From an uncultured Acetobacter sp. (GTDB lineage Bacteria > Pseudomonadota > Alphaproteobacteria > RF32 > CAG-239): a stretch of 64,000 nucleotides of DNA. Each line of letters begins with the position of its first letter. Positions within the stretch are counted from its first letter, which is position 1. Positions 23,751 through 48,831 of the stretch are shown one piece after another. The stretch lies in the NCBI GenBank assembly GCA_964599945.1, contig CAZRHI010000001.1, forward strand, positions 2,565 through 66,564, in the 5' to 3' direction. A program made the position numbers and the translations under genes. The notes beneath the pieces were generated by a model. The model searched no databases and was not told the origin of the DNA. It saw only the letters and a list, made by a program, of their open reading frames with translations.

Positions 23751-26700
23751 TTAAAATAACTCAATATCTCCAGACATTTCATCATCATCTTTTGGATAAT
23801 CGGCTACTGTTCCATCTGCTGCTGGTGGTGGAATCGCTCCTGGAGCTGTGTTCTTTTGTTGTTTTTGTTGCCCATTGCCATTATTGCTAACTAGTGTAGC
23901 TCCTTGCTGTCCTTGTTTATTCTGAGCATTATTTGTATTTGAATTGTTATTTGTTTCTACCTTAGTTTCATTTCCGCTTCTATTAATCAAAATATTTTCT
24001 GCTTTTGTATTATTTAAGGTATCTTCCCCTTTTTCGATTTCTTTTGTACTTTTTAGCCACAAATCTGTCATTGGATAAATAATAATGCGTGTTCCTGCTG
24101 GTACATAAGTAACAGCTTCTATGTTTGATTTACTTTCGATAATTTCATCTAAGATGCTATTCATTTTATCTATAAACTGTTGACGCGCATCTGATGCTGC
24201 TTGTTGTTTTGATGTTTCAACCTCGCCTGTTGCATCTTCGTTTGCAGCCATTAAATATGCCATAGCTGATGTTGCTACTGTTCCAACTAATGGCATTGTA
24301 TACTTCTTCAACATCTGTTCATCAACATAACCGAGCGCACCACCACCTCGACCTTGAGCATCACCTGTTTGACTACTACTATCCAATATAAAAGCAATAC
24401 CATCTGGACGAATTATTCTATCCCACGTAATGTCTAACTTTACACCACCGCTTGTTCCATCAAAACGACTACCATTTGAGATATTACTTAGCCCACCGAT
24501 AATTCGGCTTCCTGCTGGAATAATTACATTGCGTCCCATATCTCCATAAATATTTCTTTCTACGATTGCTGTAATCGGCGCACTTCCTAATGATATTAAA
24601 GAGCGCGCAAGAACTGCTGGTATTGGCTTATCGGCTGTTATCATATTGCTCATATCAACTCGAAGACTAGATATTGAGCGTTCTACACCTGGCCAATTAT
24701 CTTGCCAACCAGTATAGGAAGTAGCATCAAATTGACTAGAAATAGATTTCCCTGACATGGACTGACGGCGATTATTCTGAAGTTGAGCAATAATAGCTGC
24801 ACGACGCGGATTATATCTTCCCCCTGGGCCAATCCCTCCCCCCGGGCCAACATTCACAGCTTCATTGTTTGTATTATATGGTGAGGCTGTTACCCCATTC
24901 ATAATACTTCTCCACCAATCTTTATCGACTGATTTATTTTTTTCTGTATCTTTTTCTTGGTAATTGCCAATAACATTGCCGTTTGCATCAACAATCTCTC
25001 CATTTTTTCCGCGGCTTCCGATGATGTTACCATGGCTATCTATAACATCGTTATTGCTATAGACATCACCGATATATTTTCCCCCTGGGGTTACTGCAAT
25101 TCCAACAATTTTATGTTTCGCCATCGTATTATTAACACGTTCTCTATCTATATTATACTCAGGCTCTTCTGTTTGGGAACTAATAATAGGTTCTTCAATC
25201 TGGTTATTGATATTTGTTTCTATTATTGTATTGTCTTTAATGTTTTCTTTTTCAGAAGGACTTGTTGGAGTAAGAACAGTTTGTTGCTCTGATACTATAT
25301 TATTTTTCTCTGGAAGTGTTTCTTGTTTGGTTTCTCTATGGTAATATTGCAGCGTATAAGCATTGGCAATAATTTCCCCAGAAGTGTCAACCACTTCACC
25401 TTTATCATTCAATTCTCCCACTTTGATATTTTTATGGTTAACTACACTTCCATCAAGATTTAAGTATCCAATTATCTTATTTTCTTTGTTTCGAATAATA
25501 TAATCCCTTTTGCCCCGAGCAATTAAATTTTGTTTTTTATCTAATACAAATCCTTTATAAATACTCCCTTTGACATCCCCCATAACGCTATATACTGTTC
25601 CATTTTTTGCAATATAGCCAACTGTTTTGCTGTTATTATCATATACATACAAATCATATAAAGCGAATCCACTATTACCGTTTTCTAAGGTTACAGAACC
25701 ATCAAAGTTAACCTTTCCTAAAACTTCTCCTACATCAGATAATACTGTTCCTGATGCATCCACTCGTCCTAGATATGTGTTGTTATCATCAAATGCCACA
25801 TTATATTTGAATATGCTCCCTATGTTTGCTCCATTGTTAGAATACACACCTTCATCTGCCCTAATATAGCCTGCTTGATTACCAATGCCGTCTATTACTT
25901 TTCCTGAAAAATCTACTTCTCCGATTATTGTATTATCATACCCCATAACTGATGCTGAGGGAATTATCTGACCAACAATTTCATTTTGAGAATTTCTTAT
26001 ATAGCCATTTATATCTTGGCAACCTAAATTGCGATTATCATAATTTAAAACTGTTCCCAATGGGGTTTCAACCCCTAAAATTTCCCCATTATCGCCTATA
26101 ACTGCTTGCGGATGAATTATATAACCAATAACTTCCTCTGTTTCGTTTACAACTTGATTATTGGCAAGGACTGTTCCAATATATTTCCCGTTAAAGTTTT
26201 TCACATCTCCATTATCTGATACAACACCTAAAAATTTGCAGTCTGGCTTTACCGCTACGCCAAATTCTAATGTTTTACCATATAAAGCACCTGCATTATC
26301 AAGAACATATTTATCTGAGCTTATTTTTCCGACAATTTCTCCCGCTGTTTTAATTTGTCCATCGGGATAATTCGCCCCCAAATAATCACCGTTAATACTT
26401 ATACTTAATGCTGAATTTCCAGCATATCCTCTCATTTGGTTTGATAAGATGATTTGATTATCTGGTAAAATTTTTGCAATAGTTTGATTTTGATTGTTTA
26501 TAATTAAATTAGACGGATTTGTATATCCTAACAAATTTCCATAAAAATCTGTCGCATAGTCTGCTATTAAAGCATTTCCTAGTAGTTTGTTATTTTTATC
26601 TAGAAGTAGCCCTGCTGAAGTTAGTTTGGCGATTTCATTCAAAGAAGCACTTTCTGTTTTTCCTAAGCCTGATGTATATGCCAAAATCTTTCCTTTATCT

Positions 26701-28028
26701 GCAATAATATTTGCAAAAGCATAATTTCTTCCTACAACTGCCCCTTTTTCATCAAATACATATCCGTATGGCGAAATTGTATATTCATTTCCATCTGCAT
26801 TTAAGCTTGTGGAGATACCATTAACACCAATAAACGTATTAAATGATGTGTAATTTAAAAGATTATTTAGAACGCGTCCAAATTCTTTACCTTTACGATC
26901 TATTGCTTTATTTTTTTGCGTGTATCCAAGTTCTGCGCCATCTAACGATATTATTTTTCCATCAACCGCAGCATTCGCACGTAGATTTCCTAAATAATCA
27001 AATATTGGCCCCACAGAGTTTATTGTTCCAATGACAACACCATTATTATTTACAACATTACCTGACGCACCAATTTTCCCTATAATTTGCTGAGATTTTA
27101 TGACATTTCCATTTGATACTAAACGTCCCAAATATTTCCCGTCTAGGGTATTGGCTGTGGCATTAGAACTAACTGCAAACCCCTGTAATTCTCCGTCTTT
27201 GCTGATGATACGATTGCCGACCACAGCAGAGCCAACAACTCTTCCTTTATCAACCACTTCACCATTATAACTTATGCTTCCAAGATAACTGCCATCCAGA
27301 TTAAACGCATATCCACTTTCAACAATATGCCCAATAACATTATTATCCGCATTATACACAAAGCCGTTTGCATGGATATTACCAATGACGGTCTTTTTCA
27401 AATCAACTACTTTTCCGTCTGGCGCAATACTTCCTAAAAAATTCCCCAAATTATCTATTACCATTTTAGAAGATATAAGTTTTCCAACAAGGGTCGTTTT
27501 TTGATCTGTTCCTTGAGGCGCAAAAACATATCCTGTTGCGGTTACATAACCTTTTTTTTCACCAGATAAACTATAGAAATTTCCATCGCCAGACACACGT
27601 CCCACAATTTTCCCTTTATCATCGTAGACAACTCCTGGGGCTATTACTGCACCTAAAACATCATCATTATCATTAACAACAAGTCCGTTTGGTAACACTC
27701 GTCCAACTAAAACATCGTTTAGAGAGGTTACTGTACCGTCATTATTTACCTTTCCTAGCACACTGTTTGTTATTGAAATGGCAACACCTTGTGGAACAAT
27801 TCCGCCAATTAAGATATTATCTTCATTTACAGCAAAACCGTCAGCCGTAATATGTCCAATCAACTCATTATCAAAATCGATAACAGAACCGTCTGGAATT
27901 ACTTTTCCTATTAAATTTCCATCAAAATCTAATGCACTAATATCTGCAGCTTTCAGCTCAGTCGAAACACTTACGAGCAAAAGCACACTCAGTATAATGC
28001 GTTTTAATTTTGATATTTTAATCTGCAA
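23751..28028 (-). CDS. virB10: VirB10/TrbI homolog with a ~1000-aa repeat-rich N-terminal extension
   Basis: The C-terminal ~350 aa carry the VirB10 barrel-domain signature (IPAGSRIIGG...ITWDRIIRPDGIAF...GALGYVDEQ). N-terminus has a signal/TM segment followed by DGxxIGxV repeats and Q/N/T-rich linkers. Confidence 0.8.
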   Translation of the reverse strand: MQIKISKLKRIILSVLLLVSVSTELKAADISALDFDGNLIGKVIPDGSVIDFDNELIGHITADGFAVNEDNILIGGIVPQGVAISITNSVLGKVNNDGTVTSLNDVLVGRVLPNGLVVNDNDDVLGAVIAPGVVYDDKGKIVGRVSGDGNFYSLSGEKKGYVTATGYVFAPQGTDQKTTLVGKLISSKMVIDNLGNFLGSIAPDGKVVDLKKTVIGNIHANGFVYNADNNVIGHIVESGYAFNLDGSYLGSISYNGEVVDKGRVVGSAVVGNRIISKDGELQGFAVSSNATANTLDGKYLGRLVSNGNVIKSQQIIGKIGASGNVVNNNGVVIGTINSVGPIFDYLGNLRANAAVDGKIISLDGAELGYTQKNKAIDRKGKEFGRVLNNLLNYTSFNTFIGVNGISTSLNADGNEYTISPYGYVFDEKGAVVGRNYAFANIIADKGKILAYTSGLGKTESASLNEIAKLTSAGLLLDKNNKLLGNALIADYATDFYGNLLGYTNPSNLIINNQNQTIAKILPDNQIILSNQMRGYAGNSALSISINGDYLGANYPDGQIKTAGEIVGKISSDKYVLDNAGALYGKTLEFGVAVKPDCKFLGVVSDNGDVKNFNGKYIGTVLANNQVVNETEEVIGYIIHPQAVIGDNGEILGVETPLGTVLNYDNRNLGCQDINGYIRNSQNEIVGQIIPSASVMGYDNTIIGEVDFSGKVIDGIGNQAGYIRADEGVYSNNGANIGSIFKYNVAFDDNNTYLGRVDASGTVLSDVGEVLGKVNFDGSVTLENGNSGFALYDLYVYDNNSKTVGYIAKNGTVYSVMGDVKGSIYKGFVLDKKQNLIARGKRDYIIRNKENKIIGYLNLDGSVVNHKNIKVGELNDKGEVVDTSGEIIANAYTLQYYHRETKQETLPEKNNIVSEQQTVLTPTSPSEKENIKDNTIIETNINNQIEEPIISSQTEEPEYNIDRERVNNTMAKHKIVGIAVTPGGKYIGDVYSNNDVIDSHGNIIGSRGKNGEIVDANGNVIGNYQEKDTEKNKSVDKDWWRSIMNGVTASPYNTNNEAVNVGPGGGIGPGGRYNPRRAAIIAQLQNNRRQSMSGKSISSQFDATSYTGWQDNWPGVERSISSLRVDMSNMITADKPIPAVLARSLISLGSAPITAIVERNIYGDMGRNVIIPAGSRIIGGLSNISNGSRFDGTSGGVKLDITWDRIIRPDGIAFILDSSSQTGDAQGRGGGALGYVDEQMLKKYTMPLVGTVATSAMAYLMAANEDATGEVETSKQQAASDARQQFIDKMNSILDEIIESKSNIEAVTYVPAGTRIIIYPMTDLWLKSTKEIEKGEDTLNNTKAENILINRSGNETKVETNNNSNTNNAQNKQGQQGATLVSNNGNGQQKQQKNTAPGAIPPPAADGTVADYPKDDDEMSGDIELF

Positions 28029-28029: not shown

Positions 28030-31000
28030 TCAGTTCCTCCGATTTTGAGCGACTTCTTCTAACACATAGCCGGAAACTTTGTTTTTTGTATTTACATATG
28101 AGCCATTGCTCTTTAAATATCCTATTTTTCCATTTGTAATACTTAACACACTACCATCTGGCGACAATCGTCCGAGGTATTTTCCGTCATTGCTTAATAT
28201 ATTAGCACCTATTTTATAGGTATGTCCTATAATTTTTCCATTGTTATCTACAACTAAATTTGATGAAATAACTTTTCCTATGACTGAACGTTCTTGATTA
28301 AGAACTTTTCCTTCCATATTTACAAAACCTATCACCTTGTCTTGTTCGTTGATGACAATATCGCCGTCAACAATTTCACCAATTAATTGACCTTTATCGT
28401 TTATAGCTTTCCCTGAATTTAATATCTTGCCTATTCTTACATTATTTTCACCCATAACCGAACCGTCTGCCACAACTTGTCCAATAACACGGCCAGAATA
28501 ATCAAGCACGACTCCTTGTCTCATGATACTATAATTTTTATTGGAATTCCCCCCTGGTAGGGCTGTGGTTAACACACTATCGTTTATATCAATAATATCT
28601 CCTAGAGCATTTAGATAGCCTTTTATATTCCCAAAGACATCAATAACCAAATTTTCTTTTATTACTTCGCCCACGATAACTTTATTAACATCTAGAATAT
28701 GCCCATCTGCGCTGATGAAACCACTTATACTACCGTCAACATCAATGACTTTACCACTTTTGCTAACATATCCTAGGTATGTGCCGTCATATCCTATACC
28801 TACACCTGTTTTGACAACACCACCTTTATATTCACCTTTATCATCAAACATTCTACCTTTGGCATCTACCCAGCCTAATTTTTTACCATACAGATTTATT
28901 ACATCTGCATTATCATTTACAAAACCTATATAATTACCATAAAAATCAATAACATTTCCTTTAGGTAATACTTTTAATGGCTTTCCAGAATTAAACGCAT
29001 AGCCGTCAAAAGTAATTTTATCAACCGCAACTCCTTTAGTATTATAAACATATCCGTCTGCAAAAATTCTACCAACAATCCGTCCATTTGCATCTACTAT
29101 AACATTTTTCTCAGGGAAAATTACCCCTTTTGCTATTTTTTTATTATTAACTAATAGATGATTTAATAAAATTTTTGTTTCAGGAATAACCTCTTGGCTA
29201 TTGTAATTGTATTGAGATAGATTATTGATAAATTCTCCAGATAAGTTATACGCCTGTGTCTTATCCATTATCTGACCAACAATAAAGCCATCTCTGTTTA
29301 GTATTTCTCCTTCCAAATTTGCACAACCAATAATATTTTTCCCAGAACTAACTGTTCCATTAGGACTGATTATGCCCATCATTTCGCCATTATAATATGT
29401 CGCATAACTGGCTTCGTAGACTTTACCAATTAGCTTTCCATCTGGATTTAAAACACCGCCATCTGGATTAACACACCCGATATACTCACCCTCTTCATTA
29501 CGAGCATAGCCGTCCGCACCTACTTTTCCTATAATATTACATTTGTTATCTCGTATCCAGCCAATTTTTATGACATCGCCAACGTATTTTCCGTCTTTAT
29601 CAACGATGCTTCTATCAAATAGCATTCTATAACCAGTTTCCTTATTATCTTTTTTAACATATCCGTCTTTATCAACGTATCCGTAATAAGTACAGCCCCA
29701 ACCAACAGCCATACCGCCAATGACAGCTTTTCCTATAATTTTTTTACCGTCTTTACTACGAATTAAATAATTTGGTAAAACTTTTCCGACTATTTCTTCT
29801 TTATTGTTAATAACATCACCATTATTGCCGATACGCCCAAGGCTATATCCATTAGGGGACATTGCTATCATATCCTTTTTAATGACCGCTCCAATTTTTA
29901 TACCTCTAGATGTTATAACATTTCCGTCTTCATCAACGAATCCAATAACAATATTGTTTAAATCGCGTACTTTTCCGTCGCTTCCCACATACCCGATAAT
30001 GTTACCCTCATCATCTACAACAAGATTTGAATAATTACCAACGACGCCTATAATATCTCCGTTTGCATCTATCGTAAATTCCATATCTTTTCCAGTTCGA
30101 CCAATGATGTTTCCGTCTTTATCTTTAATTGAACCGTCAGATTGTACTGTACCTAAAATATTCCCTTCAAAATCTCGTGCTATTCCGTTTTCATCAATGT
30201 AACCTATTACGGTGCCATTTTCATCTAAGACAGCTTTGCGTTTTATAATATTTAATTCACTATTTCCTTGTGATGATAAACGACCAATAATTTCTCCATT
30301 GCTACCATATACTGTACCGTCTTCAGATACAATGCCTACAATCTTTCCGTCATTACCAATTACTAGCCCATTTTCATCTATATAACCAATAATATTACCA
30401 TTTTCATCAACAGCCACTTTGGCATATTCACCCTCATAACCTATCAAATTACCATTCATATCATGTATTGTGCCATTTTCACCTAAATAGCCAATTAAAT
30501 TACCTTCAAAATCATGAACACTTCCTGTTTCATCAATGTATCCAATAACATTGCCGTTTTCATCATATGCCAAACGTTTGCTTATTCCTGCCGTACCTAA
30601 TATTTCATCTGTGATACAATATACATTTCCAAAATCATCAATAAAACCTAATAACTCATCATTTTCTTGATGTATTTTTTCATCTGTTCCTAAATAACCA
30701 ATGACATTTCCACTTTCATCTTGAGCAAACTCTACTAGTCTACCAACCTTACCAATATTGCGATCATATTCATCAACAATAATGCCTGTGGGGCGAGCTT
30801 TACCTATGTTTCGACCAGAGAAGTTAAATACTGTATTGTTCTCGCCAATATAGCCTATTGTTTTACCACTAGGACTTTGCGCAAGTAAGCCTCTTCTCCC
30901 GACTGTTGCAATTACTTCGTTAGTGTTTTTATAGATTTTGCCATTATCATCAAGAAATCCAACAAGTTTGTTTTTAAAATCTTTAATATTGCCATTATCC

Positions 31001-34000
31001 TCTACAAAACCAATAATTTTCCCGTCAATATCATACGCCAAATTGCTTAAAAGCTTGGTTGTTCCTATATTCTTTCCTGATGAAGATATAACATTTCCAG
31101 ATTCATCTAATTTTCCGATAATACTATTATTACCATTTACTATTTCATTGTTTTCATTAGAATATCCTAAAACCTCTCCATTTAGTCCATATGCAATATT
31201 AGAACTCTTACATGCCGTACATAGTGGTTCACCAACAGCTATTACTTCATTATTTTCATTAACATAGCCAATAACTTTTCCATTGTCATTTCTGGCAATT
31301 TTATTAGTATCCATTACACCAATTTTCTTATTATCATGACTAAGCAATGTTTTGGAAGCAATATCTAATCTACCGATAACATTTCGCTTCAAGGATAAAA
31401 CTGTTCCTGTGTTTTCTACAATACCTATGGGCAACTCTTCCTCACCGCGTAAATACCCTGCATTATCAATATACCCAATAATCGTATTCTTTTGTTGTGC
31501 CATATTGACAACTACACCAACTTTTCCAACGAGTTCGCCTCTGGTGTTTATTATATTATTATTTTCTTTTTTGCCGATAATCTTATTCTTAAAATTCTTA
31601 ACAGTACCGTCTTGTTCTATATATCCAATAGTTTCTCCACTCTTATTATATGCAATATTTCGTTTAACACAACTTTGCCCAATAATGGTGTTACTGGCTT
31701 TGATTACTTTTCCATACTCATCTACAAATCCTATTTTATCGTTATTTTCATTTGCCACATTACCATTTTTATTGATATAACCAAGAATTGTGCCGTCTTT
31801 ATTTATCGCCATTTTTACCTGAGTTTCATCAACTCTACCAATAGCTCTTCCATTTTTGTCTGTAATACTGTTATCAGGCATAACCTTACCAACTAGATTA
31901 TCTTTGAAACCTTTAACTGTTTTTTCAGTTGTAACATAGCCTAGTACTTTCCCACTTCTATCATACGCTAGGTATCTGTATGCTCCTATTTGACCGATAA
32001 TTCTGCCACATGATGCTTTTATATTTCCGTCTTTATCTACAACGCCAAGAATATTTCCCTTCTCATCAATTACGCGTCCTTTTTCATCAATATAGCCGAT
32101 AATTTCACCTTTATCATTTAAGGCGAGTTCGCGTACTTCTCCTGTTTTTCCAATAATATTACCTTTTGCATCAACAATATTACCGTCTTTATCCATTTTG
32201 CCAATAACATTGCCCTTAAAGTCTTTTACTGTGCCATCGGAATCTACATATCCAATTACGTTGCCGTCTCTATCATATGCTAAACGGCGAGATGTTCCTG
32301 CTTTACCTATTACTTTGCCGTCTGAACCTATGATATTGCCATTGCTATCAACAGAACCTAATAGTTTACCATCTTTTCCAATAACACGATTTTTCTCATC
32401 TACAAAACCAATTACTTTTCCATTGGAATCATATGCTAATGTTTTATAATCGCCAGCTTTGCCAATGACCTGACCATTTTTATCAACAATTTCACCTGAA
32501 GCATTCACTTTTCCTATAATGTTGCCCTCAAAATCTACAACATTGCCATTATCATCAATGTATCCGAGTACTTTTCCATCTTTTCCATATGCTAAGCGTT
32601 TTTTAGTAATTGCATTTTTTCCAGTTTGAGAACTTACAATGTTACCATTTTCATCAACAGTTCCTATTTGATTTCCTTTATCATCTAAAACGCGTCCAGC
32701 CTTATCAACATAGCCGATAACATTACCGTCTTTATCTAATGCTAGTCTTGCTGGCGAACCTGCTTTACCGATGACGTTTCCATTTTTATCAACAATATTA
32801 CCGTCTTTATTCATTTTCCCGATAACATTACCTTTAAAGTCTTTTACTGTGCCGTCTTTATCCACATAGCCAATGACGTTACCGTCAGCATCATAGGCTA
32901 ACCGACGAGATGTTCCAACCTTTCCGATTATTTCGCCTTTATTGTTTTTTGTATTTTTTAGGATATTGCCATTTCCGTCTACACGTCCGATAACATTGCC
33001 TTGCTTATCAAGAACCCGTCCATTTCTATCAACAAAGCCGATAACATTGCCATTTTTATCTAGAGCTAACCGCGCTGGCACACCTGCTTTTCCGATAACA
33101 TTGCCATTTTTATCTATAATGTTACCCTTTTTATCCATTTTACCAATGGTATTACCATTGAAATCTTTAACTGTGCCGTCTTTTTCAATATACCCTATCA
33201 CGTTACCGTCTTTGTCATAGGCTAAACGACGCGCTTCTCCAACTTTTCCGATAACCTCATCCTTATCTTTTAATTCTTTTACGACATTTCCATTCTCATC
33301 AGCATAACCAACGAGATTTCCTTGACTATCAAACACTCTCCCTTTTTCATCAACATAGCCAATAACTTTACCATCTTTATCTATAGCTAATTTAGAAAGA
33401 GTGCCTGCTTTGCCAATCACATCCCCATTTTCATCAATAATATTACCGTCTTTATCCATTTTGCCAATGACTTTACCATTGAAGTCTTTAACGGTGCCGT
33501 CGGAATCAACATAACCTATCACGTTGCCGTCTTTGTCATGGGCTAAACGACGGGCTTCCCCGACTTTACCAATAACATTATCATCTTCATTTAGCTCTTT
33601 AACAATATTACCATTTTCGTCAACATAGCCAATAAGATTCCCTTTTTTATCAAGTGCACGTCCTTTTTCATCAACATAACCTACGACTTTACCATTTTTA
33701 TCCAATGCTAATTTGGCAGATGCGCCAGCTTTGCCAACAATATTCCCTTTTTCGTCAATAATATTGCCGTCTTTATCCATTTTTCCGATGACTTTACCAT
33801 TGAAATCTTTAACCGTGCCGTCGGAATCAACATACCCTATCACGTTGCCGTCTTTGTCATAAGCTAAACGATGTTCTTCCCCGATTTTACCAACAATACC
33901 GTCATCTTCTTCGGCAAATTTGACAACTTTACCGTCGGAATCAACATATCCTATAACGCTTCCTAGCTCATCTATAACACGCCCTTTCTCATCAATATAG

Positions 34001-37000
34001 CCGATAACATTACCGTCTTCATCAAGTGCTAATCGACGCTCTTCACCTGCTTTGCCGATGATATTCCCATTTTTATCTACGATATTGCCATTTTCATCGA
34101 TTTTTCCAATTACATTACCGCTAAAATCTTTAACAGTACCATCTTCATCTACATAACCAATGACCTTACCGTCGGAATCATATGCCAAGCGACGAGCTTC
34201 GCCAGCTTTGCCGATAACTGTTCCTTTGGCTTCAATGATATTCCCATTTTTGTCTGTATATCCTATTTGGTTGCCCTTTTCATCAAATACATGACCTTTT
34301 TCATCAATATAACCAATAACATTTCCTGCTTTATCTTTTGCCAATTTGGCTAGTTCGCCAGCTTTACCGATGACGTTTCCATTTTTATCCACAATATTAC
34401 CATTTTCATCAACTTTTCCGATAACATTACCTTTAAAGTCTTTAACTGTACCGTCGGAATCAACATAACCAATTACATTCCCGTCAGAATCATAAGCCAA
34501 ACGGCGACTTTCTCCTGCAAAACCTAAAATTTCACCTTTTATTGGCTCTTCGGCATATTTGACGATATTACCTTCTTTATCTGCATAGCCGATTTCTTTG
34601 CTATTTTCATCAAATACACGCCCTTTTTCATCAACATAGCCAACAACTTTACCATTTTTATCTAAAGCTAATTTAGCATTCTTTCCAGCTTTACCGATAA
34701 CGTTACCATTTTTATCTACAATATTGCCATTTTCATCTACTTTACCAATAACATTGCCTTTGAAATCTTTAACTGTGCCGTCAGCATCAATATACCCTAT
34801 CACATTACCGTCGGAATCATAAGCTAAGCGACGCTCTTCACCAACTTTCCCGACAACTGTGCCTTTGGCCGCAATAATATTTCCATTTTTACCAGTATAA
34901 CCTATTTGGTTACCATTCTTATCAAATACTCGCCCTTTCTCATCAACATAACCTATAACTTTACCCGCTTTGTCTAGAGCTAACTTGGCATTACTTCCTG
35001 CTTTGCCGATGATGTTACCATTTTTATCTATAATATTACCATTTTTATCTACTTTACCAATAACCTTACCATTAAAATCTTTTACTGTGCCGTCTTTTTC
35101 AACATAACCAATTACATTACCGTCTTTATCTAGGGCTAAACGACGTGTTTCTCCCACTTTTCCAATAACAGGAGCTTTGGTGGCAACGATATTTCCGTTT
35201 TTATCCATATGTCCGATTTGATTTCCTTTTTCATCAAACACACGACCTTTTTCATCTACATAGCCAATAACTTTGCCATTTTTATCAAGAGCTAACTTAG
35301 CTGTTTTCCCTGCTTTGCCAATAATATTACCTTTTTTATCTACGATATTGCCGTCTTTATCCATTTTACCAACAACGTTGCCTTTGAAGTCTTTAACCGT
35401 GCCGTCGGAATCAACATAACCTATCACATTACCATTTTTATCATACGCTAAACGGCGATTTTCTCCTACTTTGCCGATAATTGGAGCTTTAGGTGCATAG
35501 ATATTACCATTTTTATCAGTCTGTCCGATGAGATTTCCTTTTTCATCAAACACACGACCTGTTTCGTCTACATAGCCAATGACATTACCATTTTTATCCA
35601 ATGCTAATTTAGCATTACTTCCTGCTTTACCGATGATGTTACCATTTTTATCTACGATATTTCCATTTTTATCCACTTTACCAATAGCGTTACCTTTGAA
35701 ATCTTTAACTGTGCCGTCTTTTTCAACATAACCTATCACATTACCATTTTTATCATATGCTAAGCGACGGCTTTCTCCTACTTTGCCGATACGTGGATCT
35801 TTAGTTGCTATTATATTACCATTTTTATCAGTCTGCCCAATTTGATTTCCTTTTTCATCAAACACACGCCCTGTTTCGTCTACATAGCCAATCACTTTTC
35901 CATTTTTATCTAATGCTAATTTAGCATTACTTCCTGCTTTACCGATGATGTTACCATTTTTATCAATAATATTACCGTCTTTATCCGTTTTACCGATAAT
36001 ATTACCATTGAAGTCTTTAACGGTTCCGTCTGTATCAATATACCCTATCACATTACCATTTTCATCTAAAGCTAAACGACGCGTTTCCCCGATTTTTCCA
36101 ATAATTTCGCCATTCTTTTCTATATCGGCAAATTTAACAACATTACCGTTATCATCAATATACCCTATTGCTTTTCCCTCTTTGTCATAAACTAATTTAT
36201 GACTATCACCATTAGTACCAATTTTACTTTCTGATAATCTGTAAACATTGCCATTTTCATCTACATATCCAACAATATTACCGTCTTTATCAACCACGCT
36301 ATTGTCTGGCATAACGATACCTATAACATTGCCATTTTCATCTAGTGCTACACGTCCTGCTGAGGTTACTCTCCCGATAACATTACCGTCTTTATCTATA
36401 ACCTCGCCATTTGCATTAAGTCGTCCAATAATTTTTTTAGGATTATTTATGTCTACAACTGTTCCGTCTGGCAATACCCTACCAATAATTTTACCTTCAT
36501 CATCATAAACATATCCTGCTTCTACAGCTTTTCCGATAACCTCACCAGCTTCATTAACAATCGTCCCGTCGGATAAAACTTTCCCTATTATTTCTCCTTG
36601 CGCATCAACAACTGTCCCGTCTGTTCTTACATAACCAATCAAATTACCGTCTTTATCAAACGCTAAACGCATATTTTGCGCCACACCTATTATATTCCCC
36701 TCTGCGTCAATAATTAACCCGTCTTCATTAACTTTTCCGATAATCCGACCATCTTTATCATGCACATTTCCAGCTTCATCAATATAACCAATAACTTCTC
36801 CATTTGGACCTATAGCTAATCTATGTGCGCTTATGGAACTTCCGTCAAACGAGCAACTCCCGGTGGTACTATTACATATTTGGCGGTTATCTTCTGGGTA
36901 TACAGCACTCCCTCGGATACTGACTTCTTCAGATTTTGCATTATCTCTACTTAATCTTGTTTCATACCAGATTACTTTGAAATTATTTTGAACATTACCT

Positions 37001-37485
37001 GCCAGATGTGGAGACCATGAGATTAAAACATTACATGTTTCATCGCCACTTAAATCTCTGTTTTTGCATTTATCACGAAACTCAAAACCGTCTTCTGTTT
37101 CTTCTACTAATTCTACTCGTTCAATATGGATACTTTCTGTTCCGTCTGTTCCTATCGTTAAAATGCTCTGATTTTGTTCGTCAATTCCTAGAACAAATTT
37201 GTGCATATTAATTTGTTCAGGAGTAATTCTTATTGGCTTCTTATTTTCTGATGTGTTTTCATCTTCTACACCAATAAATAAATTTTCTTCTTCCTTATCC
37301 AGATTAGGCACAATATCTTGATTTTCTGTAAAAACAGGTGCTTCTTCCTCTGGATTATATGTATCATCATCGGAGCCTAACATGAGCAACCCAAACAGAA
37401 ACAAAACACCTGCAATAATTCCTATTATAAGAATTATTCTTCGGGTTTTTTGTTCGTATTCTTCAAAACGGGTATTATTGCTCAT
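28030..37485 (-). CDS. giant (3151 aa) single-pass membrane protein composed of DxxGxx(I/V)G repeats; T4SS-associated and function unknown
   Basis: Uninterrupted ORF. N-terminal transmembrane anchor (IILIIGIIAGVLFLFGLLML), then about 3000 aa of beta-type repeats with no identifiable enzymatic domain. Its start codon overlaps the virB9 stop (ATGA) and its stop abuts the virB10 start. Confidence 0.75.
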   Translation of the reverse strand: MSNNTRFEEYEQKTRRIILIIGIIAGVLFLFGLLMLGSDDDTYNPEEEAPVFTENQDIVPNLDKEEENLFIGVEDENTSENKKPIRITPEQINMHKFVLGIDEQNQSILTIGTDGTESIHIERVELVEETEDGFEFRDKCKNRDLSGDETCNVLISWSPHLAGNVQNNFKVIWYETRLSRDNAKSEEVSIRGSAVYPEDNRQICNSTTGSCSFDGSSISAHRLAIGPNGEVIGYIDEAGNVHDKDGRIIGKVNEDGLIIDAEGNIIGVAQNMRLAFDKDGNLIGYVRTDGTVVDAQGEIIGKVLSDGTIVNEAGEVIGKAVEAGYVYDDEGKIIGRVLPDGTVVDINNPKKIIGRLNANGEVIDKDGNVIGRVTSAGRVALDENGNVIGIVMPDNSVVDKDGNIVGYVDENGNVYRLSESKIGTNGDSHKLVYDKEGKAIGYIDDNGNVVKFADIEKNGEIIGKIGETRRLALDENGNVIGYIDTDGTVKDFNGNIIGKTDKDGNIIDKNGNIIGKAGSNAKLALDKNGKVIGYVDETGRVFDEKGNQIGQTDKNGNIIATKDPRIGKVGESRRLAYDKNGNVIGYVEKDGTVKDFKGNAIGKVDKNGNIVDKNGNIIGKAGSNAKLALDKNGNVIGYVDETGRVFDEKGNLIGQTDKNGNIYAPKAPIIGKVGENRRLAYDKNGNVIGYVDSDGTVKDFKGNVVGKMDKDGNIVDKKGNIIGKAGKTAKLALDKNGKVIGYVDEKGRVFDEKGNQIGHMDKNGNIVATKAPVIGKVGETRRLALDKDGNVIGYVEKDGTVKDFNGKVIGKVDKNGNIIDKNGNIIGKAGSNAKLALDKAGKVIGYVDEKGRVFDKNGNQIGYTGKNGNIIAAKGTVVGKVGEERRLAYDSDGNVIGYIDADGTVKDFKGNVIGKVDENGNIVDKNGNVIGKAGKNAKLALDKNGKVVGYVDEKGRVFDENSKEIGYADKEGNIVKYAEEPIKGEILGFAGESRRLAYDSDGNVIGYVDSDGTVKDFKGNVIGKVDENGNIVDKNGNVIGKAGELAKLAKDKAGNVIGYIDEKGHVFDEKGNQIGYTDKNGNIIEAKGTVIGKAGEARRLAYDSDGKVIGYVDEDGTVKDFSGNVIGKIDENGNIVDKNGNIIGKAGEERRLALDEDGNVIGYIDEKGRVIDELGSVIGYVDSDGKVVKFAEEDDGIVGKIGEEHRLAYDKDGNVIGYVDSDGTVKDFNGKVIGKMDKDGNIIDEKGNIVGKAGASAKLALDKNGKVVGYVDEKGRALDKKGNLIGYVDENGNIVKELNEDDNVIGKVGEARRLAHDKDGNVIGYVDSDGTVKDFNGKVIGKMDKDGNIIDENGDVIGKAGTLSKLAIDKDGKVIGYVDEKGRVFDSQGNLVGYADENGNVVKELKDKDEVIGKVGEARRLAYDKDGNVIGYIEKDGTVKDFNGNTIGKMDKKGNIIDKNGNVIGKAGVPARLALDKNGNVIGFVDRNGRVLDKQGNVIGRVDGNGNILKNTKNNKGEIIGKVGTSRRLAYDADGNVIGYVDKDGTVKDFKGNVIGKMNKDGNIVDKNGNVIGKAGSPARLALDKDGNVIGYVDKAGRVLDDKGNQIGTVDENGNIVSSQTGKNAITKKRLAYGKDGKVLGYIDDNGNVVDFEGNIIGKVNASGEIVDKNGQVIGKAGDYKTLAYDSNGKVIGFVDEKNRVIGKDGKLLGSVDSNGNIIGSDGKVIGKAGTSRRLAYDRDGNVIGYVDSDGTVKDFKGNVIGKMDKDGNIVDAKGNIIGKTGEVRELALNDKGEIIGYIDEKGRVIDEKGNILGVVDKDGNIKASCGRIIGQIGAYRYLAYDRSGKVLGYVTTEKTVKGFKDNLVGKVMPDNSITDKNGRAIGRVDETQVKMAINKDGTILGYINKNGNVANENNDKIGFVDEYGKVIKASNTIIGQSCVKRNIAYNKSGETIGYIEQDGTVKNFKNKIIGKKENNNIINTRGELVGKVGVVVNMAQQKNTIIGYIDNAGYLRGEEELPIGIVENTGTVLSLKRNVIGRLDIASKTLLSHDNKKIGVMDTNKIARNDNGKVIGYVNENNEVIAVGEPLCTACKSSNIAYGLNGEVLGYSNENNEIVNGNNSIIGKLDESGNVISSSGKNIGTTKLLSNLAYDIDGKIIGFVEDNGNIKDFKNKLVGFLDDNGKIYKNTNEVIATVGRRGLLAQSPSGKTIGYIGENNTVFNFSGRNIGKARPTGIIVDEYDRNIGKVGRLVEFAQDESGNVIGYLGTDEKIHQENDELLGFIDDFGNVYCITDEILGTAGISKRLAYDENGNVIGYIDETGSVHDFEGNLIGYLGENGTIHDMNGNLIGYEGEYAKVAVDENGNIIGYIDENGLVIGNDGKIVGIVSEDGTVYGSNGEIIGRLSSQGNSELNIIKRKAVLDENGTVIGYIDENGIARDFEGNILGTVQSDGSIKDKDGNIIGRTGKDMEFTIDANGDIIGVVGNYSNLVVDDEGNIIGYVGSDGKVRDLNNIVIGFVDEDGNVITSRGIKIGAVIKKDMIAMSPNGYSLGRIGNNGDVINNKEEIVGKVLPNYLIRSKDGKKIIGKAVIGGMAVGWGCTYYGYVDKDGYVKKDNKETGYRMLFDRSIVDKDGKYVGDVIKIGWIRDNKCNIIGKVGADGYARNEEGEYIGCVNPDGGVLNPDGKLIGKVYEASYATYYNGEMMGIISPNGTVSSGKNIIGCANLEGEILNRDGFIVGQIMDKTQAYNLSGEFINNLSQYNYNSQEVIPETKILLNHLLVNNKKIAKGVIFPEKNVIVDANGRIVGRIFADGYVYNTKGVAVDKITFDGYAFNSGKPLKVLPKGNVIDFYGNYIGFVNDNADVINLYGKKLGWVDAKGRMFDDKGEYKGGVVKTGVGIGYDGTYLGYVSKSGKVIDVDGSISGFISADGHILDVNKVIVGEVIKENLVIDVFGNIKGYLNALGDIIDINDSVLTTALPGGNSNKNYSIMRQGVVLDYSGRVIGQVVADGSVMGENNVRIGKILNSGKAINDKGQLIGEIVDGDIVINEQDKVIGFVNMEGKVLNQERSVIGKVISSNLVVDNNGKIIGHTYKIGANILSNDGKYLGRLSPDGSVLSITNGKIGYLKSNGSYVNTKNKVSGYVLEEVAQNRRN
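32700..36100 (-). repeat. about 11 tandem near-identical copies of a ~315-bp (105-aa) coding repeat inside the giant gene
   Basis: A recurring protein unit ...RRLAYDKDGNVIGYVDSDGTVKDFKGNVIGKVDENGNIVDKNGNIIGKAG-AKLALDKNGKVIGYVDEKGRVFDEKGNQIG... Identical nucleotide strings (e.g. ccgtcggaatcaacataacctatcac) recur at about 315-bp spacing. Antisense ORFs in the track show a repeated PITLPSLS pattern from the same repeats. Confidence 0.8.
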
Positions 37486-39767
37486 TGTATCCTAACCACA
37501 CTACAAAAGATTCCGTTACGACCTAATTGACTACAGATATTATCCCCGTCTTCAAGTGATTTGATTGGACCAACGCGTAAATGGAAAAGCTCTTTTCCTT
37601 GTCCATCTGCCGCAGTATCTACGGAATAGAAAGGTTGATACGACCCAATAGCTGCTGAATTATGCTTGGAAATATCATTCCATAATTTTTCCAAATTATT
37701 TACATTTTCATCTGTTCCTAATTCTATAGAAATATTACTTTCATTTGTTCCATTAAACGATTTTCCTGAGCGAAATTCTTTTAATAGAGCTTCCGTTTCT
37801 GCAGAAATCATACTTTTTTCTTGATCTTCAATTCTTGGCGCAATCAAGACTGGACTCGAATTATTTTGAGATGCCCCTATTTGCGCTATATTTGCATTAT
37901 TGGTTTGCCCCGCTTGAGGGGATATTGCAGAAGCTGATTGCTTATCTGCTTGATAGGTAACTCCAACATTTACACCTTGATTATTATAATCTGGAGTTAT
38001 TAGCTCTGCTTGTCCTGCTCTTATATCATATTGACCTGTTAAGACCTCTTTTGATTGCTGTGGTGTTCCGCTAATCGGCATTACCTTTGGTAACGAATCG
38101 ATTTGCGCCATATTATTTTGCCCTAATGTTGTCGATGTGTTTCCAGCATTTTGAGGTAATGTATTAAAAAAACTACTATTATCAAAAAATGACTGCAAAC
38201 CACCGCTATTAGCAGATGCGCCTTGAGTACCATTTGCTGTGTTGGCTTTGCCATCTCCACTCATCACATTATTACTGGTATTGCCTGAAAGGCCTGCTGG
38301 AAACATACCACCTGATGCACCTTGTCCACCATTTGCACCGTTGGTGTTGTAGCCATTTCCACCTACGGCATTATTACTGGTATTTCCTGAAAAACCTGCT
38401 GGAAGCATTCCACCTGATGCACCTTGTCCACTATTTACGCCATTGGGATTGTAGCTATTTCCACCTACGGCATTATTACTGGTATTTCCGAAAAAACCTG
38501 CTGGGAACATACCACCTGATGTTCCTTGTCCGCTATTTATGACGTTAGTATTGTAGCCATTTCCACCAACCGCTCCATTCGCACTTCCTTGGAAATTTGT
38601 AGACGACGGCATATTAGATGTTGCTCCTTCATAAACATTTTCTACTCGCCCTGTTTCATTATTTACAGAGTTCTCACCACCTTGGGTTGGATTGGAAGCA
38701 TAACTCGATTGTAAATCCCATTCATTTGTTTTGGCATATATTGTATTTTCTAACCCATCGGAATCTGCGCGACGCAACTTTAAGCACACAAGCCTTTTAC
38801 CGCTACGCATAACCATATCCCCCATTCCTTCAACAATAATCAAACGATTATTTGGACCAGCCGCACGGAAACCTACTGGCGTTTCTGAACGTTCCACAAT
38901 TAACGTAACAATCGGACGTTGTACTGCTGTTAAAGCTTTTTCACCTAAATCTATATATGTAAAGATGTTATCTCGCCACACACGTTCTGGCGCAATAACA
39001 ATATCATCAGGATTAGGAACATAAACCTCTATATCAAAACGAAATTTTGTTGGGTCAACAGGGATTTTTTCTATCCAATCTTCTTTTTGCAAATCCCGCG
39101 TATATGTTGAGGCAGCACTAGTTCCGTCTTGCGAATAATTACTTCCACCACTAGCATATCCTCCGCCACATCCACCAGCGGAGCCATTAGCCGCACTTTG
39201 CTTCTTTTTTACAACTTCAATATCAATAATCGCGTTTGTAATTCTATCTGTATTTATAGTTTCACTTTGTACATAAAAAACATATTTATTTCCTGAGCGT
39301 CCAAACACAATCATATTTGTATCAACACCAACAAACTGAGAGGCTTCAGGATATACCATTAAACTTGAAGGACCTTGAATTTCAGCGGTAAAAGATTGTC
39401 CATCTCCTAAATAGACATTTTCCACCACTTCCCAACTTGGAAAGTTAACCAACGTATACATACCCTCACGAACACGAATTGGCAACACCATTTCTGGTGT
39501 CCAGTAATATTTAGTATACCCTGGTCGGCTTTGTCCTTCTCCCATATGTTGCATAGGGTCTTTCCACGCGCTTTGCATCATTCCTAAAGACCCACTTCCG
39601 AGATAATTCAAATTAGTCGCAGCATAATTGCCTTGAGCTTGGTCTGCATTCTGATCTAATACACTTTTAGTAACCTGCGCATAAGCAAGACTCCCTGTTA
39701 ACTGTAACAGAAAAATTGCAGATAATAAATAACTATTTTTTCTCATAACACAAACCTTAAATTTCAA
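37482..39767 (-). CDS. virB9: VirB9/CagX/TrbG homolog (761 aa) with G/N/S-rich tandem repeats and a SPOR-like C-terminal domain
   Basis: Signal peptide. VirB9 N-domain (YTLVNFPSWEVVENVYLGDG...MIVFGRSGNKYVFYVQ) and VirB9 C-domain (...IVIAPERVWRDNIFTYIDLGEK...). Three ~37-aa Gly/Asn repeats. C-terminus ...LFHLRVGPIKSLEDGDNICSQLGRNGIFCSVV resembles a SPOR peptidoglycan-binding fold. Confidence 0.7.
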   Translation of the reverse strand: MKFKVCVMRKNSYLLSAIFLLQLTGSLAYAQVTKSVLDQNADQAQGNYAATNLNYLGSGSLGMMQSAWKDPMQHMGEGQSRPGYTKYYWTPEMVLPIRVREGMYTLVNFPSWEVVENVYLGDGQSFTAEIQGPSSLMVYPEASQFVGVDTNMIVFGRSGNKYVFYVQSETINTDRITNAIIDIEVVKKKQSAANGSAGGCGGGYASGGSNYSQDGTSAASTYTRDLQKEDWIEKIPVDPTKFRFDIEVYVPNPDDIVIAPERVWRDNIFTYIDLGEKALTAVQRPIVTLIVERSETPVGFRAAGPNNRLIIVEGMGDMVMRSGKRLVCLKLRRADSDGLENTIYAKTNEWDLQSSYASNPTQGGENSVNNETGRVENVYEGATSNMPSSTNFQGSANGAVGGNGYNTNVINSGQGTSGGMFPAGFFGNTSNNAVGGNSYNPNGVNSGQGASGGMLPAGFSGNTSNNAVGGNGYNTNGANGGQGASGGMFPAGLSGNTSNNVMSGDGKANTANGTQGASANSGGLQSFFDNSSFFNTLPQNAGNTSTTLGQNNMAQIDSLPKVMPISGTPQQSKEVLTGQYDIRAGQAELITPDYNNQGVNVGVTYQADKQSASAISPQAGQTNNANIAQIGASQNNSSPVLIAPRIEDQEKSMISAETEALLKEFRSGKSFNGTNESNISIELGTDENVNNLEKLWNDISKHNSAAIGSYQPFYSVDTAADGQGKELFHLRVGPIKSLEDGDNICSQLGRNGIFCSVVRIQ
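38240..38615 (-). repeat. three tandem ~111-bp repeats encoding (GNTSNNAVGGNGYNTNGVNSGQGASGGMFPAGFS) within virB9
   Basis: Protein-level repeat seen in the translation. An antisense ORF at 38216-38542 shows a repeated HLMHLVHYLRHW pattern from the same DNA repeats. Confidence 0.7.
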
Positions 39768-40523
39768 TTACTTTCGTTCTCTTTGTTTATATTCAACAAC
39801 AGTAAACCCTAGCGGATTTTTCAACCTTTCACCAAACCTCACCTTTTTGCTTCGATATCTTATGGTCATATTTACAACCCAAACACTTATTTGAGGCGTT
39901 TCCCTTTCAGGTGTCATATCTTCTACTTGAAATTCGACTTCCCACCCCATACCATTTTTTTGTACACCAACTTCTTTGGCTGATTTAATCTTTATGTTAC
40001 GGGTTAAATTATACTGACGAATCTGCTCCATAGCTCTTTTAGCAACATTTTCTCGGAAATCACTATAAACCTTCGTGCTTGACATCTCTTGAAGATTGCT
40101 ACCTGGATCCCAACGCTCTTTCATCTCCGCCTCATCATTAACAAAGGTATTGCGAAGAAGAATATACTCTCTTACAAACATTTCTGTTAAATATTTATAA
40201 TCATAAATCTTTTTGACTTCTTCAATATGGTAAATTTGCTCTTTCTTATCAGCAAAACTAAACAAATATGGTTCAACTCGATACAATGGAATCGTCGTCA
40301 TAATCACATATGTTAGGATAAAATTGCAACACAAACTTACAGCAAAAACTATTGCAAACGCACGAGCCGTCCACAAATAACGTTTTTCTGTTGCATTTTC
40401 AACAATCGTATCCGCAGATGCTTTTCGCCGTTGACGAATCGGCTGAGGTGTTGGTGCCGCTTTTGCACCATTCCCCTCTAACAGTACTCGTTTCGTATTT
40501 TCTGAAGAAATTTGTTCTACCAT
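39768..40523 (-). CDS. virB8: VirB8
   Basis: 251 aa, bitopic with an N-terminal cytoplasmic tail and one TM. NTF2-like C-domain with the conserved NPLGF motif. Confidence 0.8.
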   Translation of the reverse strand: MVEQISSENTKRVLLEGNGAKAAPTPQPIRQRRKASADTIVENATEKRYLWTARAFAIVFAVSLCCNFILTYVIMTTIPLYRVEPYLFSFADKKEQIYHIEEVKKIYDYKYLTEMFVREYILLRNTFVNDEAEMKERWDPGSNLQEMSSTKVYSDFRENVAKRAMEQIRQYNLTRNIKIKSAKEVGVQKNGMGWEVEFQVEDMTPERETPQISVWVVNMTIRYRSKKVRFGERLKNPLGFTVVEYKQRERK

Positions 40524-40545
40524 TCCCTATTTCCTATAGTAGCTA

Positions 40546-40734: not shown

Positions 40735-40878
40735 AATTCTCCCTCTTTTTTAAAATAATCCTTTCTTATAATTAGAACTTTTATTTTTAAAAGTCTAACG
40801 AGAAAATGAAATGCGTTGACTTATCAACAGGCTAATTTTCTCCTCTGATATTATAATACTCAAATATTTAAGATTATT

Positions 40879-46750: not shown

Positions 46751-46767
46751 GGTTTTCTCCTTTACTT

Positions 46768-48826: not shown

Positions 48827-48831
48827 TTCTA

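What the first reader, a model, noticed from the sequence alone, without database searches (positions are those of the whole stretch)
28030..37485. 3151-aa DxxGxx(I/V)G repeat protein translationally coupled between virB9 and virB10
A single uninterrupted 9.4-kb ORF with an N-terminal TM anchor and about 3000 aa of short beta-hairpin-like repeats (e.g. DKNGNVIGYVDEKGRVFDEKGNQIG). Its ATG overlaps the virB9 stop (ATGA) and its stop lies 1 nt from the virB10 start, placing it stoichiometrically with the core-complex genes. I know no canonical T4SS with a component at this position. The repeat loosely recalls YD/RHS or Ca-binding DxDG loops but fits neither consensus, so I treat it as an unassigned repeat family. 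Plausible roles are a periplasm-spanning or surface fibre, sheath or adhesin attached to the core complex.
Basis: partly seen in the sequence, partly recalled or inferred. Interest (0 to 1): 0.9.

Follow-up and report, generated by a model that had tools for sequence, protein, structure and literature searches.

The report
Split giant VirB10: inner-membrane half
The 3151-residue repeat protein is a real, conserved gene, but it is not a new secretion-system part: it is the inner-membrane-anchored front half of an enormously lengthened VirB10 that a clade of uncultured gut Alphaproteobacteria has split into two coupled genes, which is unusual because VirB10 is normally one chain bridging both membranes.

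Summary

- **The ORF.** 28030-37485 (minus strand) is an intact 3151-codon ORF. It has one N-terminal membrane helix and about 160 hairpin units of 17-18 residues. Its ATG overlaps the virB9 stop, and its stop lies 1 nt before the next start.
- **The repeat.** It is not an unassigned family. It is the Pfam beta-flower/DUF3659 repeat (PF21785, 766 bits).
- **Homology.** The N-terminus (tail, membrane helix, ASH/PapD-like beta-sandwich) matches the N-terminus of single-chain 2200-2400-residue VirB10 proteins of related gut MAGs. There virB9 is followed directly by that VirB10.
- **The split.** In 67 species genomes closer to the window, VirB10 is split as it is here. The upstream ORF ends ...EVA(Q/K)NRRN*, and its last codons carry the GGAGG for the next gene. 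The downstream ORF starts 1-3 nt later in 57 of the 67 loci and opens with a signal-peptide-like sequence. It carries the TrbI domain.
- **Artefacts excluded.** Pseudogene, sequencing frameshift and programmed recoding are all ruled out.
- **Length.** The window's copy is the longest seen (1092-2255 residues elsewhere). The excess is a diverged 312-bp tandem array.

The function of the arrays is unknown. I infer a two-chain VirB10 that re-associates in the periplasm. This is a new variant of a known kind.

The parts
28030..37485 (-). G = 'VirB10-N'. A 3151-aa (338 kDa) inner-membrane-anchored beta-flower repeat protein, homologous to the N-terminal part of single-chain giant VirB10.
37375..37437 (-). 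Single transmembrane helix (aa 17-37), preceded by a basic cytoplasmic tail (KTRR) that carries the conserved E-[QE]-Y motif.
36901..37233 (-). ASH/PapD-like (MSP-type) beta-sandwich domain, aa 85-195, with invariant cysteines C140 and C151. This fits a periplasmic location.
   Evidence: AF2 pLDDT >90; Foldseek hits to CEP192 ASH (6fvi, E 3.6e-7) and HYDIN PapD-like domains; invariant columns
28066..36822 (-). Beta-flower/DUF3659 hairpin array (aa ~222-3140), about 160 units of 17-18 aa.
32634..36104 (-). Tandem array inside G: 312-bp (104-aa, six-hairpin) unit, 10.9 copies, 67-86% DNA identity between units. It accounts for the ~1090 aa that G has in excess of its closest orthologue.
28033..28107 (-). 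Conserved C-terminal motif of G (...NGSYVNTKNKVSGYVLEEVAQNRRN). This is the most conserved stretch of the protein across species.
28035..28040 (-). GGAGGA Shine-Dalgarno for the downstream gene, embedded in the last codons (R-R-N) of G, 6 nt upstream of the TTG start at 28028.
23751..28028 (-). 'VirB10-C': 1425 aa, made of a signal-peptide-like N-terminus, about 50 beta-flower hairpins, a low-complexity linker and the TrbI/VirB10 domain.
27948..28028 (-). Predicted Sec signal peptide of VirB10-C (aa 1-27, ...STELKA|ADISALDFDG).
   Evidence: sequence features only; no signal-peptide predictor was available
24054..24641 (-). TrbI (VirB10 C-terminal, outer-membrane core) domain, aa 1130-1325.
   Evidence: PF03743, E 7e-27
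37482..39767 (-). VirB9/CagX homologue (761 aa) with a borderline C-terminal SPOR (peptidoglycan-binding) domain. Its stop overlaps the ATG of G.
22693..23673 (-). VirB11 ATPase.
39768..41679 (-). Two VirB8 paralogues (39768-40523 and 40879-41679).
52257..54710 (-). VirB4 ATPase, near the start of the same minus-strand gene block.

Best explanation
The ORF encodes the inner-membrane half of a two-chain VirB10. In an ancestor of these gut Alphaproteobacteria, the periplasmic linker of VirB10 was replaced by a long array of beta-flower hairpin repeats. Single-chain forms of 2200-2400 aa still exist. In the sub-clade that holds the window, the gene was cut inside the array.

The upstream product (G) keeps the cytoplasmic tail, the membrane helix, an ASH/PapD-like domain and most of the array. 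The downstream product gained a Sec signal peptide and keeps the rest of the array plus the TrbI domain, which builds the outer-membrane core with VirB9. The two genes are translated as a coupled pair, because the ribosome-binding site lies in the last codons of G.

Inferred, not shown: both arrays lie in the periplasm; the conserved C-terminus of G and the conserved mature N-terminus of VirB10-C re-associate non-covalently, so the pair still links the inner-membrane ATPase complex to the outer-membrane channel; the arrays form a large periplasmic, possibly peptidoglycan-associated, collar around the machine.
For: Shown:
- The repeat is beta-flower. The AF2 model of aa 573-780 is all beta-hairpin with pLDDT 94.
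- G aa 8-199 is colinear with the N-terminus of 102 of 111 TrbI-bearing 2200-2400-aa proteins.
- P0001 216-2228 aligns across the junction of G+VirB10-C.
- In L001, virB9 is followed directly by a 2331-aa VirB10 and then virB11.
- Among 80 species genomes (TrbI 52-83% identical), the order VirB8-VirB9-G-VirB10C-VirB11 holds wherever the contig allows. The G C-terminus abuts the VirB10-C N-terminus in 77 of 81 loci. Public gene calls show the same order.
- At the junction in 67 loci...EVA[QK]NRRN*, GGAG in 56, a gap of 1-3 nt in 57, and all 67 downstream N-termini are signal-peptide-like.
- G has one membrane helix with basic residues before it and invariant cysteines after it.
- The last 30 aa of G (0.88) and the first ~150 aa of mature VirB10-C (0.76-0.80) are conservation peaks, against 0.45-0.70 for the arrays.
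Against: - There is no direct evidence of expression, topology, signal-peptide cleavage or interaction.
- G ranges from 1092 to 3151 aa between species. That fits poorly with a fixed-length periplasmic spacer.
- About 160 hairpins would be far longer than the periplasm if extended, so the array must be compacted or leave the cell.
- The polarity of the event (fission rather than fusion) rests on parsimony, not on a rooted tree.
- I could not inspect the model coordinates, so whether the units close into discrete flowers or form a rod is unknown.
- Part of the C-terminal conservation is explained by the embedded Shine-Dalgarno sequence.
Confidence: 0.75

Rival explanations
1. One reading: an independent accessory component, with no VirB counterpart, that forms a surface fibre, sheath or adhesin attached to the core complex.
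For: The length is very variable between species, 1092-3151 aa. [quoted passage not shown] There is a precedent: the CagY repeat region is detected on the H. pylori surface (PMC5954226). An ASH/PapD-like domain is a typical protein-protein module.
Against: Its N-terminus is homologous to that of single-chain VirB10, and the pair is colinear with it. It has an uncleaved N-terminal membrane anchor and no outer-membrane or export signal. Single-chain relatives have no extra gene at this position. 'No VirB counterpart' is therefore refuted. Surface exposure of part of the array is not excluded.
Confidence: 0.15
2. One gene broken by a frameshift: a pseudogene or a sequencing or assembly error. G and VirB10-C would really be one 4576-aa protein.
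For: Single-chain relatives exist. The two ORFs are separated by only 1 nt and differ in frame. Repeats are error-prone to assemble, and many public contigs break inside these genes.
Against: The same junction, with the same C-terminal motif, Shine-Dalgarno sequence, start and signal peptide, occurs in 67 independently assembled species genomes. The segment after the junction is a hydrophobic signal sequence, not a hairpin. Single-chain forms lack both junction motifs. The DNA repeats are only 67-86% identical and the longest exact repeat is 50-59 nt, so collapse or expansion in assembly is unlikely.
Confidence: 0.02
3. Programmed frameshift or stop read-through fuses the two ORFs into a single VirB10 in some fraction of translations.
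For: The ORFs abut tightly, and G's last sense codon and stop (AAC TGA, or TAA/TAG) are well conserved.
Against: The gap between stop and start varies from -1 to 25 nt, with 32 loci at 1 nt, 12 at 2 nt and 13 at 3 nt. The frame relation is therefore not conserved, and all three stop codons are used. A fused product would carry a signal-peptide-like hydrophobic segment in mid-chain.
Confidence: 0.03
4. An RHS/YD-repeat polymorphic toxin or its shell, carried by the T4SS.
For: Pfam RHS_repeat E 3.5e-35. Weak matches to Rhs proteins by sequence (7q97, E 7.6e-4) and by Foldseek (7pq5, E 1e-7).
Confidence: 0.02

Closest known systems
Single-chain giant beta-flower VirB10 of related uncultured gut Alphaproteobacteria (e.g. 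P0028 of GCA_017962565.1, 2331 aa, annotated only as hypothetical / DUF3659 / TrbI-VirB10 family)
   Same: Same N-terminal tail, membrane helix and ASH-like domain; same hairpin repeat; same TrbI end; same place between virB9 and virB11.
   Different: It is one polypeptide of 2200-2400 aa without the NRRN-stop/Shine-Dalgarno/signal-peptide junction. The window has two chains totalling 4576 aa.
CagY, the VirB10 orthologue of the Helicobacter pylori Cag T4SS
   Same: It is a VirB10 enlarged about 4-fold by an internal repeat region ahead of the conserved VirB10 domain. It has been described as unique among VirB10 orthologues in this respect (PMC5954226).
   Different: CagY repeats are alpha-helical modules (PMC2581425, title), not beta-hairpins, and there is no sequence relation. 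CagY is one chain. Its DNA repeats recombine frequently in-frame (PMC2194252, PMC5954226), whereas here the units are only 67-86% identical.
Canonical VirB10/TrbI (Agrobacterium VirB10, pKM101 TraF, R388 TrwE)
   Same: N-terminal inner-membrane anchor at one end and the TrbI domain at the other. Gene order is virB8-virB9-virB10-virB11.
   Different: From established knowledge, canonical VirB10 is one chain of roughly 380-450 aa with a proline-rich periplasmic linker. Here the linker is replaced by about 210 hairpins and the chain is cut in two.
Beta-flower proteins (Pfam PF21784/PF21785/PF21786, clan CL0395; Durairaj et al. 2023, PMC10584680)
   Same: Same HMM families and the same [DNEQ]xxG hairpin-tip motif.
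   Different: The described beta-flowers are small single domains (about 96 aa), some of them lipoproteins. No link to secretion systems and no arrays of thousands of residues were reported.
Rickettsiales vir homologue (rvh) T4SS
   Same: A chromosomal alphaproteobacterial P-type T4SS with duplicated VirB8 and oversized components (PMC2653234; window).
   Different: From my knowledge, the rvh duplications concern VirB4, VirB6, VirB8 and VirB9, and its VirB10 is of ordinary size and unsplit. This was not tested here.

Membership tests
Beta-flower / DUF3659 repeat (Pfam PF21785, PF21784, PF12396) | Score above the Pfam gathering threshold. | tested here: met
   Bflower_2 766 bits (cut-off 38), Bflower 425 bits (cut-off 25), DUF3659 354 bits (cut-off 24.8).
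Beta-flower / DUF3659 repeat | Semi-conserved [DNEQ]xxG motif at the tip of each beta-hairpin. | tested here: met
   105 strict DxxGxx[ILV]G matches and about 160 units spaced 17-18 aa apart. The motif is defined in PMC10584680.
Beta-flower / DUF3659 repeat | Shallow closed barrel of 8, 10 or 12 short antiparallel strands (4-, 5- or 6-fold). | tested here: inconclusive
   The AF2 model of aa 573-780 has pLDDT 94 and consists only of short hairpins with long connecting strands every 52 aa. Coordinates could not be inspected and the AFDB library was unavailable. There is no solved homologue.
VirB10 / TrbI family (PF03743) | C-terminal TrbI domain. | tested here: not met
   G has no PF03743 match. 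The domain is in the next ORF. G alone is therefore not a VirB10 by the Pfam definition.
VirB10 / TrbI family | N-terminal cytoplasmic tail plus a single inner-membrane helix. | tested here: met
   One hydrophobic segment, aa 17-37, preceded by KTRR.
VirB10 / TrbI family | Orthology of the region to full-length VirB10 proteins. | tested here: met
   The N-terminus is colinear with 102 of 111 TrbI-bearing proteins, E down to 4e-18. G+VirB10-C is colinear with P0001 across the junction.
VirB10 / TrbI family | Gene position between virB9 and virB11. | tested here: met
   The G/VirB10-C pair occupies that position in the window and in relatives.
VirB10 / TrbI family | One polypeptide contacting both membranes. 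| tested here: not met
   The stop codon, separate start and signal peptide are conserved in 67 species.
RHS / YD-repeat proteins | Rhs core shell with a C-terminal cleavage motif and toxin domain. | tested here: not met
   Only a repeat-level Pfam match of 120 bits. TM 0.11-0.13 to Rhs shells. The C-terminus is conserved and is not a toxin.
CagY-type repeat VirB10 | Alpha-helical repeat modules encoded by near-identical DNA repeats that recombine in frame. | tested here: not met
   The repeats are beta-hairpins and the DNA units are 67-86% identical.
ASH / PapD-like / MSP beta-sandwich (N-terminal domain only) | Fold similarity to solved ASH or PapD-like domains. | tested here: met
   Foldseek: 6fvi E 3.6e-7, 2e6j E 1.6e-6, TM(target) 0.59-0.71. 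The profile also hits thousands of proteins with tandem copies of this domain.

The most novel reading that the evidence does not exclude
A naturally two-chain VirB10. The inner-membrane half and the outer-membrane half are held together only by a non-covalent contact between the conserved C-terminus of G and the conserved mature N-terminus of VirB10-C, possibly by completing a shared beta-flower. Fourteen-fold copies of the arrays would build a multi-megadalton periplasmic or partly surface-exposed collar. This would show that covalent continuity of VirB10 across the envelope is not required for a working T4SS, and it would give the beta-flower fold its first cellular role.
Probability: 0.35. 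Interest if true: 0.8.

Novelty: new variant of a known kind. Interest (0 to 1): 0.62.

Why it matters
VirB10 is the textbook example of a protein that spans both membranes of a Gram-negative cell, and it is thought to pass ATP-driven conformational signals from the inner-membrane motor to the outer-membrane gate.

A large clade of gut bacteria does two unusual things to it. At least 67 species genomes, out of 364 that carry the TrbI relative, lengthen VirB10 5- to 10-fold with an uncharacterised repeat fold and then cut it into two coupled genes. This is a natural test of whether the covalent bridge matters.

It also places the recently named beta-flower fold in a defined machine. And it flags that automated annotation ('DUF3659 domain-containing protein', 'hypothetical') hides half of VirB10 in these genomes.

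Tried and rejected
- **Whole-protein search.** It returned only TrbI-bearing proteins. True G orthologues were missing, and G's exact sequence is not in that collection although its neighbours are.
- **N-terminal profile search in the word-indexed database.** It gave only short fragments from contig ends.
- **Exhaustive profile search.** It was dominated by unrelated proteins with tandem ASH-like domains, so it could not be used to count split against fused forms. It did recover a 1102-aa G-type protein, P0275.
- **Contig look-up for the window's VirB11.** It found only a 4-kb contig, so the source organism could not be named beyond 'uncultured gut alphaproteobacterium'.
- **AFDB fold library.** Unavailable.
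- **Literature searches.** VirB10+DUF3659, RF32 gut Alphaproteobacteria plus secretion systems, and split VirB10 found nothing on this architecture.
- **Explanations rejected.** RHS toxin, pseudogene/frameshift and programmed recoding; reasons are under the rival explanations.
- **A CagY-like recombination switch.** Judged unlikely because the DNA units are too diverged.

Full report
**1. Observation.** The minus strand carries an uninterrupted ORF at 28030-37485 encoding 3151 aa.
- Its ATG (37485-37483) overlaps the TGA of the preceding 761-aa ORF in the sequence ATGA. That ORF matches Pfam CagX (VirB9) and, at the threshold, a C-terminal SPOR domain.
- Its TGA (28032-28030) is followed after one base by a TTG at 28028. 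This opens a 1425-aa ORF with a TrbI/VirB10 domain at aa 1130-1325.
- VirB11 follows. Two VirB8 paralogues and VirB4 precede.
- The protein has one hydrophobic helix (aa 17-37) and about 160 hairpin units spaced 17-18 residues apart.

**2. The repeat is a known family.** Pfam assigns the repeats to Bflower_2 (PF21785, 766 bits, 39 stretches), Bflower (PF21784) and DUF3659 (PF12396).
- These families were created in 2023 for the 'beta-flower' fold, which was found in AlphaFold models. It is a shallow barrel of short hairpins with a [DNEQ]xxG motif at the tips, no solved structure and no known function (PMC10584680).
- An AF2 model of two 104-aa units (aa 573-780) is all hairpins at pLDDT 94.

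**3. It is the front half of VirB10.** The best homologues of the whole ORF are 111 proteins of about 1800-2600 aa, mostly 2200-2400 aa, from uncultured Alphaproteobacteria. Every one ends in a TrbI domain.
- In 102 of them the first ~200 residues align position for position with residues 8-199 of the window's protein, with E down to 4e-18.
- When the window's two ORFs are joined in silico, P0001 residues 216-2228 align colinearly with residues 2363-4507 of the join. That alignment runs straight across the junction at 3151/3152.
- In the genome that encodes P0028 the order is VirB8, VirB9, one 2331-aa VirB10, VirB11. There is no extra gene.

**4. The split is real and conserved.** A scan of one genome per species with a TrbI alignment found 364 relatives. 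All 80 retrieved loci are gut metagenome-assembled genomes from mouse, ruminant, rabbit or human samples, and all but one are labelled Alphaproteobacteria or Proteobacteria; the closest are 82-83% identical.
- In nearly all 80 loci the TrbI ORF is only ~1400-1900 aa. It is immediately preceded by a same-strand beta-flower ORF.
- Mapping the window's proteins gives the order VirB8-VirB9-G-VirB10C-VirB11 wherever the contig allows.
- Public gene calls for GCA_045590955.1 show the same order: CagX 509 aa, then 1137 aa, then 1888 aa with TrbI, then VirB11.
- At the junction in 67 loci the upstream protein ends ...GY[VA]L.EVA[QK]NRRN*. The codons CGG AGG supply GGAG in 56 loci.
- The next start (TTG 44, ATG 15, GTG 8) lies 1-3 nt after the stop in 57 loci.
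- All 67 downstream proteins begin with a basic stretch, a hydrophobic run and an A-x-A-like site. Conserved mature starts follow: ADISALDFNG or QEITAINFNG.
- Single-chain proteins lack both junction motifs.

This excludes a pseudogene or a sequencing frameshift. Because the gap, and hence the frame relation, varies from -1 to 25 nt and all three stop codons occur, programmed recoding is also excluded.

**5. Anatomy of the protein.**
- *Tail, helix, linker and domain.* AF2 on the first 232 aa, using an alignment of 23 N-termini, gives a helix at 6-36, a disordered linker at 40-80, and a confident beta-sandwich at 85-195. That sandwich matches ASH/PapD-like/MSP domains: CEP192 6fvi at E 3.6e-7, and HYDIN 2e6j.
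- *Topology.* Basic residues precede the helix. Invariant cysteines C140, C151 and C204 follow it. I infer that the N-terminus is cytoplasmic and the rest periplasmic.
- *The array.* It then runs to the conserved C-terminal motif.
- *The extra length.* Against the closest orthologue (L003, 2093 aa), residues 1313-3151 align at 66% identity with 221-2093. The extra ~1090 aa are tandem 104-aa units, seen at the DNA level as 10.9 copies of 312 bp at 32634-36104.
- *Assembly.* Units are 67-86% identical in DNA, and the longest exact repeat is 50-59 nt. The assembly is therefore credible, and the array is old rather than a CagY-like recombination hot spot.
- *Length range.* Complete upstream ORFs in 54 other species span 1092-2255 aa. 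The window's copy is the longest.

**6. Mechanism.**
- *Shown.* Common descent with the N-terminal part of VirB10, a conserved two-gene arrangement, and sequence features of translational coupling and of Sec export for the second chain.
- *Inferred.* The two chains act together as VirB10. G contacts the inner-membrane complex through its tail and helix. VirB10-C builds the outer-membrane core with VirB9.
- *Possible docking site.* In 35 species the last 30 aa of G (majority frequency 0.88) and the first ~150 aa of mature VirB10-C (0.76-0.80) are as conserved as the TrbI domain (0.81-0.86). The arrays between them score 0.45-0.70. This is what a docking interface would look like, though part of it reflects the embedded ribosome-binding site.
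- *What the arrays do.* This is unknown. Fully extended they would far exceed the periplasm, and their length varies three-fold between species. That argues against a simple ruler. It leaves open a compact collar, a peptidoglycan-associated mesh (VirB9 carries a borderline SPOR domain), or partial surface exposure as reported for the CagY repeat region (PMC5954226).

**7. Comparison and novelty.**
- The present case differs in repeat fold (beta-hairpin against alpha-helical, PMC2581425), in having no sequence relation, in slow repeat turnover, and above all in being split into two genes.
- Full-text searches found no paper linking VirB10 with DUF3659 or describing a split VirB10.
- Public annotation calls these genes hypothetical, DUF3659 or TrbI/VirB10 family.
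- I rate it a new variant of a known kind. It is not a categorically new component, but it would surprise T4SS specialists.

**8. Limits.**
- Everything rests on sequence and prediction.
- The organisms are uncultured.
- The direction of the event (fission) is a parsimony argument.
- No signal-peptide predictor, AFDB fold library or model coordinates were available.
- Of the 364 genomes only the 80 most similar were examined, so the ratio of split to single-chain forms across the whole clade is unknown.

Noticed in passing
window 41699-52190 (-): Between virB4 and the first virB8 lie five ORFs of 356, 747, 228, 452 and 1683 aa. Each has a signal-peptide-like N-terminus, none has a significant Pfam match, and none has further membrane helices. 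No multi-pass VirB6/TrbL-like protein is in the block, although a relative (L083) has a TrbL-like gene nearby on the other strand.
   Followed up: partly
window ~54700-56420 (-): Upstream of virB4 there are three small ORFs (112-153 aa) with a signal peptide plus two hydrophobic segments, which look like VirB2 pilin paralogues. There is also a 96-aa VirB3-like ORF.
   Followed up: no
window 37482-39767 (-), aa 687-759: VirB9/CagX is unusually long at 761 aa, against 509-590 aa in more distant relatives. It ends in a SPOR-like peptidoglycan-binding domain that sits right at the Pfam threshold (21.4 bits against 21).
   Followed up: no
window 58151-61556 (+): A TcpQ-domain protein is followed by a secretin. 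This is part of a type IVb/Tad-like pilus or another secretin system, directly beside the T4SS block.
   Followed up: no
window 12433-16429 (+) and 20394-22696 (+): dnaA-dnaN-recF, and yidC-yihA, flank the T4SS block. The system is therefore chromosomal and lies next to the replication-origin region. GC skew changes sign near 16 kb and 58 kb, following gene orientation.
   Followed up: partly
L052 and L079 (related loci): In these two species the downstream TrbI chain is the expanded one (2325 and 2082-2113 aa) while the upstream chain is ~1320-1400 aa. Repeat expansion therefore occurs in either half.
   Followed up: no
protein collection: The exact G sequence is absent from the 15-billion-protein collection, although VirB11, DnaA and DnaN of the same 67,849-bp NCBI contig are present. 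Many G-type entries are short fragments from contig ends, which suggests that short-read assemblies often break inside these repeat genes.
   Followed up: partly
hits P0113-P0117: Distant DUF3659 repeat proteins of 1700-1900 aa occur in fungi (Parastagonospora, Clathrospora), combined with PF22485 (one is named a DUF6987 domain-containing protein by UniRef). The hairpin repeat is therefore not confined to bacteria.
   Followed up: no
window 28030-37485, N-terminal tail aa 7-16: The cytoplasmic tail carries a motif (F-E-E-Y-E-x-K-T-R, or S-S-S-E-Q-Y-x-K-K-S-N-R in single-chain forms) that is nearly invariant across the family. It is a candidate contact for the inner-membrane ATPases.
   Followed up: no
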